Source of the DNA: a virus
Lineage: Duplodnaviria; Heunggongvirae; Uroviricota; Caudoviricetes
Length of the DNA stretch: 40,222 nucleotides
Direction: 5' to 3' (one strand)
IMG/VR virus record: IMGVR_UViG_2778261638_000008
Positions 575 through 28,836 of this stretch are shown here, one piece after another. The translations under genes and the position numbers were made by a program. Below the pieces are notes generated by a model that worked only from the letters and a program-made list of their open reading frames with translations, ran no database searches and had not been told where the DNA came from. Each line of letters opens with the position of its first letter. Position 1 is the stretch's first letter.

Positions 575-1174
575 TTATGCTTGTTTACTCCTTGATTCCA
601 CTGGGGAAGCTGGCCACTCAATATCCGGTGCTCTTGATGTATCAACACGGTTCAGCAGCACTCGATACTTCTTCCATGCCACCAGTAACGATGTTTCTTC
701 CTCTGTTGCAATATTCAAATCTACGGCATCTTGAAGTGGCGAAATATGCTCACTGGCTACCTGCATGAGGCTGTTTTTTGTTTCTTCCGCCTCCCGGATC
801 CGGAACAGTTTTTCTGCTTCCGTATCCTTCACCCAGGCTGTGCCGTTCCACTTCTGAAACTCCCCTTCCGGCGATAACCAGGTAACATTTTCCGGTAACG
901 GACCGAGTTCAGAAATAAATAACGCGTCCCCTGATGCCACGTCATAAACTGTTTTACCCCGATGGTCTTCAACAAGATGCCACGATGCCTCATCACTGTT
1001 GAAAATAGCCACGAAGCCAGCTGGAATATCTGGCGGAGCAATATCAGTACTATTTGCAGGTAGACCTGTATGAGGTGGAATGTATGCATCACCTTCACCA
1101 ATAAATTCATTGGTTCCGACCAGCAGATTATAAATTTTTATGGTTCGTGGTTGTTCACTCATTCTGAATGCCAT
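575..1174 (-). CDS. Phage tail fibre assembly protein (Tfa-like chaperone)
   Basis: 199 aa immediately downstream of the tail fibre gene with overlapping stop/start; composition and position typical of Tfa chaperones. Confidence 0.7.
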
Positions 1175-24500: not shown

Positions 24501-24923
24501 TTATGCCGCCGAGCAGCTCCTACGCAAAGTCCTGATAGCCTGAGGCTTTGACTGAACCGACTGATCCATTTCGAGCACCACATCCAGCATGGCTAAGCAA
24601 CCGTCAATAAATCCCTCTGCCGCCTGAAGCCTCTTCAGAACGTGGGTGTGAGATACGCCGAGCTTCTCACCCATCGCCCGCACGGGCATGGCCTGGACGT
24701 AATGCCACTCAAGGAGCGTGCACAGATACGGATCTTTTTTCTTCAGGCAGCTCATAGCGGAGTTGATGATAAGACCGTCATTGTCACTGCATTTCAGCCT
24801 TCCAGACTGCGTTGCGGGTAGCAGATTCTTAAACCCGGCTGCAACAGGAGGAAAGTAGACGCTACCACCTTCACTCGCTGCCCAGCCCCCCCAGCGCTCT
24901 AAAACCTGTTGAATATTACGCAT
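24501..24923 (-). CDS. Q: Late gene antiterminator Q (phage 82/21 Q family)
   Basis: 140 aa; N-terminal VLERWGGWAA and central Cys-containing region match remembered Q/QuuD-family proteins; positioned upstream of lysis cassette. Confidence 0.75.
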   Translation of the reverse strand: MRNIQQVLERWGGWAASEGGSVYFPPVAAGFKNLLPATQSGRLKCSDNDGLIINSAMSCLKKKDPYLCTLLEWHYVQAMPVRAMGEKLGVSHTHVLKRLQAAEGFIDGCLAMLDVVLEMDQSVQSKPQAIRTLRRSCSAA

Positions 24924-27401: not shown

Positions 27402-27602
27402 TTAAGCCTTTTGTCTAGCTGTCACTTTCTGAAAAAGTTTTTCTATCGCACGTACTGTAGAAAAGCGAGGGTCAGAATGAACCCCGGTAAGAAGCCGACT
27501 AATAGAAGACTGCTTCACGCCTGCAATTTCGGCAATTTGGTTTTGGGTATACCCTGAATCAATCAAGCTTTTGACCATCTCTTGTGGTGTTAGTCCGGAC
27601 AT
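27402..27602 (-). CDS. cro: Cro-like HTH regulator
   Basis: 66 aa; HTH segment YTQNQIAEIAGVKQSSISRLL; divergent from CI across a 141-bp operator region. Confidence 0.65.
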   Translation of the reverse strand: MSGLTPQEMVKSLIDSGYTQNQIAEIAGVKQSSISRLLTGVHSDPRFSTVRAIEKLFQKVTARQKA

Positions 27603-27743
27603 ATTTAAGTCTCCACTTTCGTCTATAGCGCAAATTTATACGAAAACGGATTGCTAAGCAATACAGCAATTCTATGTCATCCTAGATTAAAATATCCGAT
27701 AACGCATAATCACCGTCCCTGTATACAACATGGATGAATCCAA
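27603..27743. promoter_or_regulatory. Immunity switch region (divergent promoters and operators between cro and cI)
   Basis: 141-bp AT-rich intergenic region between divergent HTH regulators; contains palindrome ATTGCT-A-AGCAAT (about 27650-27662) and a CGCATAAT motif repeated near the pL-like promoter. Confidence 0.6.
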
Positions 27744-28418
27744 ATGATTGATACTACCGATATCCTTTCTCAAAACATCAAGTACCTGATGGACAAAGCC
27801 AAGATAAGCTCGATAACTGAGCTGGCACGTCGGTTACAGCTGAACCAACCAACGCTACACAGGCTGGTATCAGGAGAGGTGAAAGATCCGAAATACGCAA
27901 CGTTAAAGCAGATCGCCGACTACTTCCACGTGTCACCAATAGACTTGGCAGAAAGGAGCCTTCAAGAAATGGAGAAAGAGGACGCGACAGGTATAAAAAC
28001 GTATATTTCTCTTAGGTTTAATAAAGTACCTGTTTTGGGAAACACTCAGCTAGGCGTTGGAGGACTTTGGAGCGACACCCAATATTCAGTAGGTAGCAGT
28101 GATGGTTTCATATACTGGCCGACAAAGGATGAAGATGCATACGCCCTGAAATGTGTTGGTGATTCAATGATGCCTAGAATCAAAGAGGGGGAGTTCGTAA
28201 TCGTCGAACCCAACCACGACTACACTCCTGGTGATGAAGTACTTGTGGTTACCCGGGACGGTGAGGTCATGGTTAAAACCTTCTTGTTCGAACGCGATGG
28301 CCTGTTCCATCTAATGTCTGTAAATGAAGATCATCCACCAGTCAGAGTACCACGCGAAAACATTGAAAAAATCCATTACGTGGCGGGGATCGCCAAATCC
28401 GCGCTACGTATGTACTAA
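27744..28418 (+). CDS. cI: CI-like repressor (N-terminal HTH, C-terminal S24 LexA-like autopeptidase)
   Basis: 224 aa; HTH near N terminus; C-terminal GDSMMPRIKEGEFVIVEP ... VVTRDGEVMVKTF contains the Ser/Lys dyad context of S24 peptidases. Confidence 0.85.
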   Translation: MIDTTDILSQNIKYLMDKAKISSITELARRLQLNQPTLHRLVSGEVKDPKYATLKQIADYFHVSPIDLAERSLQEMEKEDATGIKTYISLRFNKVPVLGNTQLGVGGLWSDTQYSVGSSDGFIYWPTKDEDAYALKCVGDSMMPRIKEGEFVIVEPNHDYTPGDEVLVVTRDGEVMVKTFLFERDGLFHLMSVNEDHPPVRVPRENIEKIHYVAGIAKSALRMY

Positions 28419-28451
28419 CCTTTACAGTCTGATAACTTACTTCTGATCAAA

Positions 28452-28481
28452 CCGCTCTCCACAAGGGCGGTTTTCTTATTT
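28452..28481 (+). terminator. Rho-independent terminator after cI
   Basis: CCGCUC-UCCACAA-GGGCGG hairpin (one G-U pair) followed by UUUUCUUAUUU, 34 nt after cI stop. Confidence 0.7.
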
Positions 28482-28502: not shown

Positions 28503-28531
28503 TTGACAAAAAATCCTATAACGCATATAAA
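28503..28531 (+). promoter_or_regulatory. Strong sigma70-type promoter (TTGACA-17 bp-TATAAA), pL-like early-left promoter
   Basis: Consensus -35 TTGACA, 17-bp spacer, -10 TATAAA; followed by palindrome CGCAT-AATTA-ATGCG (28541-28555) as likely operator. Confidence 0.65.
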
Positions 28532-28567
28532 TACGATATCGCATAATTAATGCGTTTTTTAATACTA

Positions 28568-28580
28568 GCTCTTTAACAAA
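28568..28580 (+). promoter_or_regulatory. boxA-like antitermination element (GCTCTTTAACAA)
   Basis: 12-nt exact match to remembered rrn boxA core (TGCTCTTTAACAA) about 30 nt downstream of predicted start site of the pL-like promoter. Confidence 0.55.
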
Positions 28581-28724
28581 CTGAACCGCGTGACAGGTAA
28601 GCCGCAGTACTCCTGGCAAAACGAAATAGCACCCGATGGGATCGAGGTAAGCGCCGAGTCCGTATGCGTACGGTAAGCGTAGAGGACAACACCGCGACAA
28701 ACTGATAAGTCACGCAAGTTGAAA

Positions 28725-28755
28725 CGCCCCGACGATGGGGCGCTTAGTTCCTTTT
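28725..28755 (+). terminator. Hairpin plus U-rich tract in early-left leader (tL-like)
   Basis: CGCCCC-GACGAU-GGGGCG perfect hairpin followed by CUUAGUUCCUUUU. Confidence 0.45.
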
Positions 28756-28836
28756 GGGGTGGGGTGAAGATCAGTCCATTGAGTCAATCCGAAGTTCAGC
28801 ATCTACCACTACACCACCACCAAAGAGAACTGCTAA

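What the first reader, a model, noticed from the sequence alone, without database searches (positions are those of the whole stretch)
28503..28760. Consensus promoter followed by a boxA element and structured noncoding leader: candidate nut-like antitermination site or sRNA
Right after the cI terminator is a near-consensus promoter (TTGACA, 17 bp, TATAAA), then a perfect palindrome CGCAT-AATTA-ATGCG (candidate operator or small hairpin with U6), then a 12-nt exact match to the rrn-type boxA core (GCTCTTTAACAA, 28568-28580). About 250 nt of structured non-coding sequence follows: long-range complement CCGCGTGAC (28586-28594) / GTCACGC (28709-28715), three GGTAAGC repeats, hairpin CCGTA-TGCG-TACGG, and a GC hairpin plus U-rich tract at 28725-28755. 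A second terminator lies at 29501-29527 before the first early ORFs. This matches a lambda-like pL-nutL-tL layout, but no N-like protein is evident, so antitermination may be RNA-based or use an unrecognised factor; alternatively the region encodes a stable sRNA.
Basis: partly seen in the sequence, partly recalled or inferred. Interest (0 to 1): 0.55.

Follow-up and report, generated by a model that had tools for sequence, protein, structure and literature searches.

The report
boxA-linked antiterminator-like phage leader RNA
The early operon of this temperate E. coli phage starts with a host Nus-factor binding site (boxA) joined to a previously undescribed folded RNA, and sister phages carry the known HK022 "put" antiterminator RNA at exactly this position, so it is probably a new RNA device that lets RNA polymerase read through terminators.

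Summary
A repressor-controlled promoter (-35 at 28503, -10 at 28526) is followed by an exact 12-nt rrn-type boxA (28568-28579).

Single-sequence folding is not significant. Comparison of more than 100 related loci, however, shows five covarying helices: 25 of 34 pairs have compensatory changes, against 2-7 in slid controls. No Rfam family matches, and a model of this RNA finds nothing in the HK022 put region.

The module (boxA to GC hairpin, 28568-28742) moves as one unit. It is joined to at least 8 different immunity/promoter regions and occurs in two unrelated phage backbones.

In sister prophages (80-99% identical neighbouring gene) every intact locus has either this module (51) or a ~75-nt homologue of HK022 putL (22). 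The two lie between the same flanks and never occur together. No N-like protein and no cassette-linked gene was found.

The best reading is a cis-acting, Nus-factor-using, N-independent antitermination cassette that carries transcription through downstream terminators, including an RprA-like one at 29501-26. Function is inferred, not shown.

The palindrome at 28540-54 is an operator, not part of the RNA module.

The parts
28449..28473 (+). Intrinsic terminator of the CI-like repressor gene (27744-28418); this is the upstream boundary of the early promoter region.
   Evidence: Terminator scan: 10-bp stem followed by a T-rich tail. The repressor ORF carries HTH and Peptidase_S24 domains.
28503..28531 (+). 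Early (pL-like) promoter: TTGACA, 17-nt spacer, TATAAA. The transcription start is inferred near 28538.
   Evidence: Read from the sequence. The hexamers are conserved in Yersinia phage YeP4 at 72% overall identity. Other immunity types have their own TTGAC -35 elements at the same distance upstream of boxA. The start site has not been mapped.
28518..28554 (.). Operator-like repeats ATAACGCATATA (28518) and ATATCGCATAAT (28536) plus the palindrome CGCATAATTAATGCG (28540-54). They belong to the immunity module, not to the RNA module.
   Evidence: A third copy, ATAACGCATAAT, lies at 27698 in the cro/cI intergenic region. This region is replaced wholesale in loci with other immunity types, while the sequence from boxA onward stays the same. 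As RNA it would form a 5-bp hairpin followed by U6.
28568..28579 (+). boxA, GCUCUUUAACAA: an exact match to the rrn-type consensus, inferred to bind NusB/NusE.
   Evidence: It is unique in the window and identical to the boxA of the E. coli rrnB leader. In the 51 sister loci recovered through a protein anchor, without selecting on boxA, it is exact in 48 and is GUUCUUUAACAA in 3. It always lies 8-11 nt upstream of helix P1.
28588..28715 (+). Structured RNA domain of about 128 nt.
- P1: 28588-94 / 28709-15
- P2a: 28596-98 / 28701-03
- P2b: 28601-05 / 28694-98
- P2c: 28607-09 / 28690-92
- P3: 28611-14 / 28683-86
- P4: 28631-37 / 28641-48, with a bulged A and a GGG loop
- P5: 28660-64 / 28669-73
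   Evidence: Helix coordinates come, and covariation. G-U pairs point to the + strand RNA. Covariance model R1 finds exactly one copy per locus, always on the early-operon strand. P5 is deleted in L025 and L187. No Rfam family matches.
28615..28630 (+). Highly conserved single-stranded core GGCAAAACGAAAUAGC, lying between P3 and P4.
   Evidence: In the protein-anchored set, 39 of 51 loci have CAAAACGAAAU(A/G)GC. Eight have one-base variants (CAAAAUGAAAUGGC, CAAAACAAAAUAGC, CAAAUCGAAAUGGC). Four fail the pattern, including L223 and L217 with a 2-nt deletion and L196 with the core deleted. The core is conserved while the flanking helices covary. No complementary site exists elsewhere in the window.
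28725..28742 (+). GC hairpin CGCCCC-GACGAU-GGGGCG, 9 nt after P1; it is the 3' end of the mobile cassette.
   Evidence: It is present in 48 of 51 protein-anchored loci, with loop GAUGAU or GACGAU. The cassette's right-hand junction with put-bearing sisters falls just after it. The following tract CUUAGUUCCUUUU (28743-55) is a weak U-run and is not conserved.
28837..29361 (-). Reverse-oriented 174-aa ORF (moron, phrog_1244, function unknown), inserted between the cassette and the RprA-like element.
   Evidence: ORF list and PHROG match. It is absent from compact relatives, where the RprA-like element follows the cassette at +221 to +226.
29417..29530 (+). RprA-like element: seed-like AAUUGCUGUGUGUAGCCUUU (29481-29500) plus the intrinsic terminator GCCCGCC..GACGGGC-U6 (29501-26). 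It lies directly upstream of the first conserved early gene (56 aa, 29565-29735).
   Evidence: Rfam RF00034 scores 44.9 bits, E = 5e-4, below the gathering score of 70; only the 3' half aligns with confidence. The element lies between the cassette and the 56-aa gene in 22 of 22 put-bearing loci and 41 of 63 evaluable boxA-RNA loci.

Best explanation
The stretch 28568-28742 (boxA, a ~128-nt multi-helix RNA and a GC hairpin) is a self-contained, cis-acting transcription antitermination cassette at the head of the repressor-controlled early operon.

**Proposed sequence of events**
1. After induction, RNA polymerase starts near 28538.
2. The nascent boxA binds host NusB/NusE (S10).
3. The adjacent folded RNA, closed by P1 so that boxA and the GC hairpin come close together, takes the role that the N protein plus boxB has in lambda, or that put RNA has in HK022.
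4. The modified elongation complex resists Rho on the long untranslated leader (about 1 kb in this window). It also resists the terminator-like hairpins, including the RprA-like terminator at 29501-26, so the replication genes from 29565 onward are expressed.
5. Unmodified complexes would stop at that terminator.

**Shown here:** the sequence features, the RNA fold (by covariation), the modular mobility of the cassette, the mutually exclusive replacement by put, and the absence of a linked protein gene.

**Inferred:** transcription from this promoter, Nus-factor binding, and the antitermination activity itself.
For: 1. **boxA.** It is an exact match to the rrn consensus, identical to E. coli rrnB. 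It is kept in 48 of 51 sister loci recovered without selecting on it.
2. **A real RNA structure.** It always lies 8-11 nt after boxA, occurs once per locus, and sits on the operon strand.
3. **The unit moves as a block.** From boxA onward it is joined to at least 8 unrelated promoter/immunity regions. It also occurs in two phage backbones that share no early proteins apart from one nucleotide-metabolism-type ORF.
4. **Replacement by put.** Of 79 sister loci found through the DUF2800 gene, 51 carry the RNA. The 22 others with an intact upstream region carry an element about 80% identical to HK022 putL. That element matches GenBank features annotated putL in HK75, O276 and HK639.
   - The two cassettes sit after the same promoters and before the same downstream junctions. 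L020 and L209 share both flanks.
   - No locus has both.
   - put suppresses both intrinsic and Rho-dependent terminators without protein factors (PMC9378689).
5. **Same terminator downstream.** The same strong RprA-like terminator lies ahead of the first conserved gene in both cassette types.
6. **No partner protein found.** There is no N-like arginine-rich ORF, and no ORF within 5 kb of the DUF2800 gene tracks the cassette type.
7. **Precedent for boxA alone.** boxA with Nus factors protects long untranslated RNAs from Rho (PMC7665894).
Against: - There is no experimental or transcript evidence of any kind.
- Positional replacement shows that the two cassettes are interchangeable, not that they do the same thing.
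- The -10 hexamer lacks the conserved final T.
- There is only one copy per phage, with no nutR/putR equivalent in the cro operon.
- In the second phage backbone the same boxA leader is followed by other, unrelated structured segments. This would fit boxA being the only antitermination part and the folded RNAs being exchangeable cargo.
- One natural variant (L196) lacks P2b-P4 and the core.
- A consensus boxA also occurs in an N-dependent P22-type nut site (L131), so boxA alone does not argue for N-independence.
- The search for a partner protein covered only about 5 kb on each side of the DUF2800 gene.
Confidence: 0.55

Rival explanations
1. boxA alone is the antitermination signal. It would act in the rrn, CRISPR-array or suhB manner, through the Nus factor complex against Rho. 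The folded RNA would be separate cargo: a leader-embedded non-coding RNA with its own role, acting in trans or as a decoy (for example sequestering a host RNA-binding protein, or anti-defence). boxA would shield its synthesis from Rho.
For: - boxA without N protects untranslated RNA from Rho (PMC7665894).
- In the ParB-type phage backbone the same leader and boxA are followed by at least three other, unrelated structured segments.
- The P4 loop displays GGA or GGGA (AGGA, CGGA, GGG-A), and a second conserved GAGGA lies 35-60 nt downstream. From my own knowledge this resembles CsrA-type binding sites.
- In compact loci a transcript ending at the RprA-like terminator would be an RNA of about 330 nt.
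Against: - The cassette that put replaces includes the RNA and the hairpin, not just boxA.
- Downstream lie intrinsic terminators. From established knowledge (not tested here), rrn-type boxA complexes handle these poorly, yet put-bearing sisters face the same terminators.
- In most relatives no terminator or processing signal lies right after the domain.
- No complementary target for the core exists in the window.
Confidence: 0.25
2. It is a conventional nut site for an unrecognised N-like protein. In this reading boxA and a boxB-like hairpin (the GC hairpin at 28725-42) are brought together by helix P1, and the 128-nt domain is an insertion between them.
For: - If the P1-closed domain is ignored, boxA, an 8-nt spacer, a 9-nt spacer and a 6-bp hairpin with a G-first hexaloop recall the boxA-spacer-boxB arrangement.
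- A related phage has boxA, then 17 nt, then the hairpin CACCGC-AAUGAU-GCGGUG, which has a similar loop (L250).
- A consensus boxA occurs in a P22-type nutL (L131).
Against: - No real gene with an N-terminal arginine-rich motif was found.
- The first conserved ORF (56 aa, phrog_11981) has a hydrophobic C-terminal half, apparent from its translated sequence.
- No ORF co-varies with the cassette.
- The two backbones that carry the RNA share no early protein apart from a nucleotide-metabolism-type ORF.
- The hairpin loop varies (GAUGAU, GACGAU, GAUGCA, GUUGAU, GAUUAU), and classes C and E have different hairpins.
- There is only one site per phage.
Confidence: 0.08
3. It is a riboswitch-like attenuator. 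In this reading the P1-closed multi-helix domain, with its conserved unpaired core, senses a ligand or host factor. That would decide whether the downstream hairpin terminates early transcription.
For: The architecture looks like an aptamer: a closing helix, a multi-way junction, conserved unpaired nucleotides, variable peripheral stems, and a hairpin 9 nt downstream. In the window and in class E the hairpin is followed by a U-rich tract.
Against: - In most relatives the GC hairpin has no U-tract.
- I found no convincing alternative pairing between the domain and the hairpin on inspecting the sequences and MFE folds. Alternative pairings were not searched for systematically.
- boxA has no role in known riboswitches.
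- Replacement by put, a constitutive antiterminator, argues for a constitutive function.
- No Rfam riboswitch matches.
Confidence: 0.05

Closest known systems
Lambda-type nut sites (boxA + boxB) with N protein and the Nus factors
   Same: - The position matches: right after the repressor-controlled early promoter that follows the cI gene, and ahead of terminators and early genes.
- It has a boxA.
- Nus factors are expected to be involved.
- The phage also has a Q-type late antiterminator (24501-24923).
   Different: - There is no boxB at the canonical 5-10 nt spacing.
- A 128-nt covarying multi-helix domain follows boxA instead.
- No N-like gene was found.
- There is a single site per phage.
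- boxA is the full rrn consensus, not the shorter degenerate lambda form (the lambda sequence is from my own knowledge).
HK022 put RNAs (putL/putR), cis-acting antiterminator RNAs
   Same: - It occupies the same place in the operon, and no dedicated phage protein is apparent.
- Sister prophages carry a true putL homologue in exactly this slot, between the same flanks.
- The HK022 layout (cI, PL, putL, terminator) is the same.
   Different: - There is no sequence or structure similarity. Model R1 scores at most 6.7 bits in the HK022 PL/PR region.
- put is about 70 nt, consists of two stem-loops, has no boxA and needs no host factor (PMC9378689).
- This element is about 175 nt, has nested helices closed by a long-range stem, and begins with boxA.
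rRNA operon leader antitermination (boxA with NusA/B/E/G, SuhB, S4) and boxA leaders of CRISPR arrays and suhB
   Same: - The 12-nt boxA is identical to that of E. coli rrnB.
- boxA lies near the 5' end of a long untranslated transcript (PMC7665894).
- boxA lies just upstream of one strand of a long-range helix, as in rrn leaders (my own knowledge).
- The core resembles an rrn-leader segment at a similar distance from boxA: GCAAGACGAAAAAUGA in rrnB, and GCAAAACGAAAUA in two metagenomic rrn leaders.
   Different: - No boxC (UGUGUGGG) is present.
- The alignment with the rrnB leader is not significant: 87-109 of 500 shuffles score as well.
- The setting is a phage, with intrinsic terminators downstream.
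Leader-embedded phage immunity RNAs (P1/P7 c4, P4 CI, N15 CA; Rfam C4 family)
   Same: It is a structured RNA in the untranslated leader of an early or immunity operon of a temperate phage.
   Different: - No match to the C4 model or to any other Rfam family, even at E up to 10.
- No complementary target sites exist in the window.
- boxA is not a feature of those systems (my own knowledge).

Membership tests
Lambda-type nut site | boxA sequence in the nascent leader RNA | tested here: met
   GCUCUUUAACAA at 28568-79 is exact and conserved.
Lambda-type nut site | boxB hairpin (short stem with a GNRA-like pentaloop) a few nucleotides after boxA | tested here: not met
   The 8 nt after boxA lead into P1 of a 128-nt domain. 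The only candidate hairpin lies 146 nt downstream and has a variable hexaloop.
Lambda-type nut site | Cognate N protein with an arginine-rich motif, encoded just downstream | tested here: not met
   The arginine-rich-motif scan of all ORFs found no real gene. Pfam and PHROG searches of the early ORFs gave no antiterminator other than Q. No ORF is linked to the cassette. This test is weak for very divergent proteins.
Lambda-type nut site | Two sites, nutL and nutR, one in each early operon | tested here: not met
   The covariance model finds one copy per locus and none on the cro/primase strand.
HK022 put RNA | About 70 nt, two adjacent stem-loops, put sequence signature | tested here: not met
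   The architecture differs. R1 finds nothing in the HK022 PL/PR region. The true put homologue in sister phages is a different sequence.
HK022 put RNA | Located directly downstream of the early promoter and upstream of terminators | tested here: met
HK022 put RNA | Acts without host Nus factors, through the zinc-binding domain of the RNA polymerase beta-prime subunit | not testable with these tools
   The presence of boxA suggests the opposite, that is, use of Nus factors. This needs genetics or biochemistry.
rrn-type boxA antitermination leader | Consensus boxA near the 5' end of a long untranslated RNA | tested here: met
   boxA lies about 30 nt after the inferred start. The first + strand gene is at 29565, giving a leader of about 1 kb. 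The sequence is identical to rrnB boxA.
rrn-type boxA antitermination leader | boxC (GU-rich UGUGUGGG) after boxA | tested here: not met
   It is absent from the module sequence but present in the rrn leaders examined.
rrn-type boxA antitermination leader | Assembly of NusA/B/E/G, SuhB and S4 on the elongation complex | not testable with these tools
   Needs biochemistry or nus/suhB mutants.
Any Rfam 15 family (including C4 antisense RNA and riboswitches) | Score at or above the family's gathering threshold | tested here: not met
   Nothing in 28503-28760 at gathering score or at E up to 10. Nothing at the module in 11 related loci.
RprA sRNA (RF00034), for 29417-29530 | Gathering score of 70 bits and the full three-hairpin structure | tested here: not met
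   The score is 44.9 bits (E = 5e-4). Only the 3' seed-like stretch and the terminator align with high posterior probability.

The most novel reading that the evidence does not exclude
This would be a third kind of phage early antitermination device: an RNA that does the job of the lambda N protein. boxA would recruit NusB/S10, and the adjacent folded RNA (with its conserved A-rich core, the GGA-bearing P4 hairpin and the GC hairpin) would bind NusA or RNA polymerase. Alternatively the RNA would mimic the rRNA leader so that an rrn-type complex forms. The result would be a Nus-dependent, protein-N-independent complex that passes intrinsic as well as Rho-dependent terminators.
Probability: 0.4. 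Interest if true: 0.85.

Novelty: new variant of a known kind. Interest (0 to 1): 0.72.

Why it matters
Processive antitermination in phage early operons is known in two forms: protein N acting on boxA/boxB with Nus factors, and the factor-independent put RNA. A structured RNA fused to a consensus boxA, with no N protein, and naturally exchangeable with put, would be a hybrid of the two.

It would show how an RNA can cooperate with the host Nus machinery. It would also give structural biologists a compact new RNA-polymerase-modifying RNA to study.

The system is directly testable, because nature provides matched sister prophages that differ only in the cassette.

The element is common enough to matter for prophage induction. 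It occurs once each in 92 of 5426 complete E. coli genomes, including Shiga-toxin-era clinical isolates, and also in Yersinia, Erwinia and Pluralibacter elements. It is annotated nowhere.

Tried and rejected
- **Rfam scans.** I scanned the window at gathering score, the local region at E up to 10 and 11 related loci. Nothing matched at the module.
- **Single-sequence folding.** The fold is no better than shuffles, so the case for structure rests on covariation only.
- **First RNAalifold run.** On a raw MAFFT alignment of all classes it failed, because the 3' halves were misaligned. It proposed only a boxA/core pairing, GCUcUUU with AAAuAGC. This cannot be tested, since both sides were fixed by my search pattern. 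By my estimate chance alone gives such a match with p of about 0.08.
- **Core 18-mer in one genome per species.** Of 60 hits only two are real elements, in Erwinia sp. JUb26 and a Pluralibacter MAG. The others I inspected lie in other contexts and look like chance matches.
- **mEpimmI phages.** These Nus-dependent non-lambdoid phages are a different group with an N-like Gp17 and boxA/boxB nut sites (PMC11893012). They did not appear among the DNA matches.
- **put membership.** Rejected.
- **N-like protein search.** The arginine-rich hits are out-of-frame ORFs inside real genes. One is a 46-aa minus-strand ORF across the RNA, which the single-base indels between RNA classes would frameshift.
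- **Cassette-linked gene.** None was found within 5 kb of the DUF2800 gene.
- **Trans target of the core.** None in the window.
- **rrn-leader mimicry.** A suggestive motif exists, but the alignment is not significant.
- **Literature.** No paper contains the core sequence or describes a phage RprA-like RNA. King et al. 2011 on put-like RNAs could not be read.

Full report
**1. What is in the sequence**

The window is a temperate E. coli phage or prophage. It is 97% identical over this region to Escherichia phage vB_EcoM-606R2, and 99% identical to prophages in complete E. coli genomes.

Around the finding the layout is lambda-like.
- A Cro-like HTH gene (27402-27602, minus strand) is followed on the same strand by a primase-helicase and, further on, a Q-type antiterminator (24501-24923).
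- Diverging from it is a CI/LexA-like repressor (27744-28418, plus strand) with its terminator (28449-73).

boxA is 28568-28579. The long-range helix is 7 bp (28588-94 / 28709-15).

**2. Is it more than chance?**

The exact 12-mer boxA is unique in the window; about 0.005 copies are expected by chance.

Folding the single sequence gives no signal (z = +0.88). Comparison does. A search for boxA plus the conserved core found 43 viral contigs, and looser patterns found more. A metagenome scan added 36.

From boxA onward the sequence is conserved, while the DNA upstream belongs to at least 8 unrelated promoter/operator types.

The homologues fall into five sequence classes:
- A: E. coli, including the window
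- B
- C
- D: including Erwinia
- E: Yersinia phages YeP4-6

Their differences are compensatory. For P1 the pairs are GCGUGAC/GUCACGC, GCAUGAC/GUCAUGC, GCACUG/CAGUGC and CACAGCAGC/GCUGCUGUG.

I derived a structure with helices P1, P2a-c, P3, P4 (with a bulged A) and P5.
- On a plain MAFFT alignment 92% of cells pair, against 21-39% in slid controls, and 11 pairs are compensatory against 2-3.
- On the covariance-model alignment 95% pair, 25 of 34 pairs are compensatory against 2-7, and 0 of 500 shuffles reach the covariation score.
- RNAalifold alone recovers P1, P2c, P3 and P4.
- G-U pairs place the structure on the + strand RNA.

A caveat applies. The pattern-derived loci were selected for exact boxA and core, so conservation of those two elements must be judged on the protein-anchored set. 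There boxA is exact in 48 of 51 loci, the core matches CAAAACGAAAU(A/G)GC in 39 of 51 with one-base variants in 8 more, and the GC hairpin is present in 48 of 51.

**3. What it is not**
- No Rfam family matches, and there is no tRNA or tmRNA.
- It is not a put RNA. The model finds nothing in HK022, and the architectures differ (PMC9378689).
- It is not a standard nut site. There is no boxB next to boxA, no N-like gene and a single copy per phage.
- The palindrome at 28540-54 belongs to the immunity module. The motif ATAWCGCATAWT occurs three times in the two regulatory regions, YeP4 has analogous CGCAT..ATGCG palindromes, and the palindrome disappears when the immunity type changes.
- The three GGTAAGC repeats are real. 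They mark deletion end-points in natural variants. L025 and L187 lack P5, and L196 lacks P2b-P4 with the core.

**4. The key comparison**

Using the neighbouring DUF2800 protein as an anchor, I fetched 79 sister loci that are 80-99% identical.
- The model hits 51 of them.
- Of the 28 others, 6 are truncated or rearranged upstream.
- All 22 intact ones carry, in the same slot, an element of about 75 nt that is about 80% identical to HK022 putL. It has compensatory changes in the put stems.
- That element matches GenBank features annotated putL or putL-like in HK75, O276 and HK639.

Three promoter/immunity types occur with either cassette, and the downstream junctions (AGTTCCCTTTGGGGTG..., or AGTGAATTAATCAAAGGCTTCGGGCC...) are shared. 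L020 and L209 are alike on both sides and differ only in the cassette. No locus has both cassettes.

The exchanged unit runs from just after the transcription start to just after the GC hairpin, so boxA, the RNA and the hairpin form one module. No ORF within 5 kb of the anchor gene tracks the cassette type.

The RNA also occurs (classes C and D) in a different, lambdoid-like backbone. There it again follows a CI-like repressor, a terminator and a promoter, with no N gene in sight.

**5. What has to be read through**

In this window about 1 kb of untranslated RNA separates the start from the first + strand gene, and part of it is antisense to an inserted 174-aa ORF.

Just before that gene lies an intrinsic terminator embedded in an RprA-like sequence. 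The same element lies ahead of the 56-aa gene in 22 of 22 put-bearing loci and 41 of 63 evaluable boxA-RNA loci. Other relatives have other terminator-like hairpins there.

**6. Mechanism**

The best-supported reading is a cis-acting antitermination cassette that uses host Nus factors through boxA and an RNA domain in place of N/boxB or put (confidence 0.55).

The steps from sequence to function are inference.

The main rival (0.25) is that boxA alone counters Rho, as in rrn operons and CRISPR arrays (PMC7665894), and the folded RNA is cargo with another role. It gains weight because other structured segments follow the same boxA leader in related phages. It loses weight because the downstream terminators are intrinsic and because put replaces the whole unit.

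A hidden N-like protein (0.08) and a riboswitch-like attenuator (0.05) are less likely.

**7. Comparison with known systems, and novelty**

The element works most like put and nut, but it is a member of neither family, nor of any Rfam family. I found no paper that contains the core sequence.

I rate it a new variant of a known kind, namely RNA-mediated processive antitermination. It comes with a well-supported new RNA structure and an unusually clean natural experiment, the put/boxA-RNA allelic pairs, that makes the function directly testable.

It is present once in each of 92 of 5426 complete E. coli genomes and is not annotated in any of the hits listed.

Noticed in passing
window 29417-29530 (+); also L008, L010, L023, L028, L036, L039, L150, L188, L201, L210: The phage carries an RprA-like element. 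The stretch AAUUGCUGUGUGUAG(C/U)CUUUGCCC plus the terminator matches the 3' half of Rfam RprA (44.9 bits, below the gathering score). It lies just upstream of the first conserved early gene in most family members. It could yield an RprA-mimicking sRNA when early transcripts terminate. No paper describing it was found.
   Followed up: partly
L149-L153, L160, L161, L163, L164, L166, L176, L179, L186, L188, L190, L192, L193, L201, L203, L207, L209, L210 (e.g. L150:3480-3552): Non-lambdoid sister prophages (DUF2800 / DNA polymerase A / VapE replication module) carry a homologue of HK022 putL right after their early promoter. The element is about 80% identical to putL and has compensatory stem changes.
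   Followed up: yes
L233:2529-2650, L231:2932-3070, L238:2950-3080, L250:4753-4810, L280:2229, L283:2333: In a lambdoid-like backbone with a ParB-like gene, the same leader 5' end and a consensus boxA (GCTCTTTAACAAT) are followed by several different structured segments. Some are closed by their own long-range helix, for example CACCCAGCG...CGUUGGGUG in L238. L250 has boxA, then 17 nt, then the hairpin CACCGC-AAUGAU-GCGGUG. Only boxA matches model R1. L233 reaches 25 bits overall through its closing stems, without the core.
   Followed up: partly
L294, L298, L300 (metagenome rRNA operon leaders); L332:267-344 (E. coli rrnB leader): True rRNA leaders carry boxA, boxC and then GCAAAACGAAAUA (GCAAGACGAAAAAUGA in E. 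coli) 55-61 nt after the start of boxA. This resembles the phage RNA core, which lies 48 nt after boxA. The pairwise alignment is not significant, so this is only a lead that the phage RNA may mimic part of the rrn leader.
   Followed up: partly
window 28596, 28646, 28672; L025, L187, L196: The three GGTAAGC direct repeats coincide with deletion end-points in natural variants. Loss of the segment between repeats 2 and 3 removes hairpin P5. Loss between repeats 1 and 2 removes P2b-P4 and the conserved core (L196).
   Followed up: partly
window 28540-28560 (+): Read as RNA, the operator palindrome would form a 5-bp hairpin followed by U6 at about +3 to +23 of the early transcript. It looks like a terminator, and the scan lists it as one. 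It is specific to this immunity type, and its effect on early transcription is unknown.
   Followed up: no
window 28631-28648 and 28681-28686; classes B-D in L007, L004, L022: The P4 hairpin presents GGA in its loop (GGG-A, AGGA or CGGA, closed by A-U), and a conserved GAGGA lies 35-60 nt downstream in P3. The spacing and form recall CsrA/RsmE binding sites (my own knowledge). This was not tested.
   Followed up: no
L034:6140-6200, L002:4273-4325, L254:2975-3040, L233:2634-2690: A conserved hairpin lies immediately upstream of the first early gene in classes C and E and in related leaders, whatever structured RNA precedes it. It reads GGAUUUACCCUGC(C/U)GC...GCGG(A/U)AGG(C/U)AUAAAACCAC(U/C)GAGGA and ends in the Shine-Dalgarno sequence.
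   Followed up: no
window 633-831 (-): There is a full-length Rfam IS009 match (190 bits, above gathering score) inside a 199-aa ORF (575-1174, minus strand) at the tail end of the phage. It probably reflects a conserved coding region rather than a separate RNA gene.
   Followed up: no
window 28837-29361 (-), 32554-33084 (-), 36102-36722 (-): Three ORFs of unknown function lie in reverse orientation inside the + strand early operon. Early transcription must pass through them antisense, which adds to the need for a termination-resistant polymerase. The first is absent from compact relatives.
   Followed up: partly
window 28755-28830 (+); L019, L201, L209: A long imperfect stem (GGGGUGGGGUG ... 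CACCACCACC, about 45-nt loop) lies just after the cassette. It is conserved in both cassette types (AGUUCCCUUUGGGGUG(C/U)GG(C/U)GAA ... CCGCACCGCC). Its role is unknown; it could be a processing site or a terminator for the reverse ORF.
   Followed up: no
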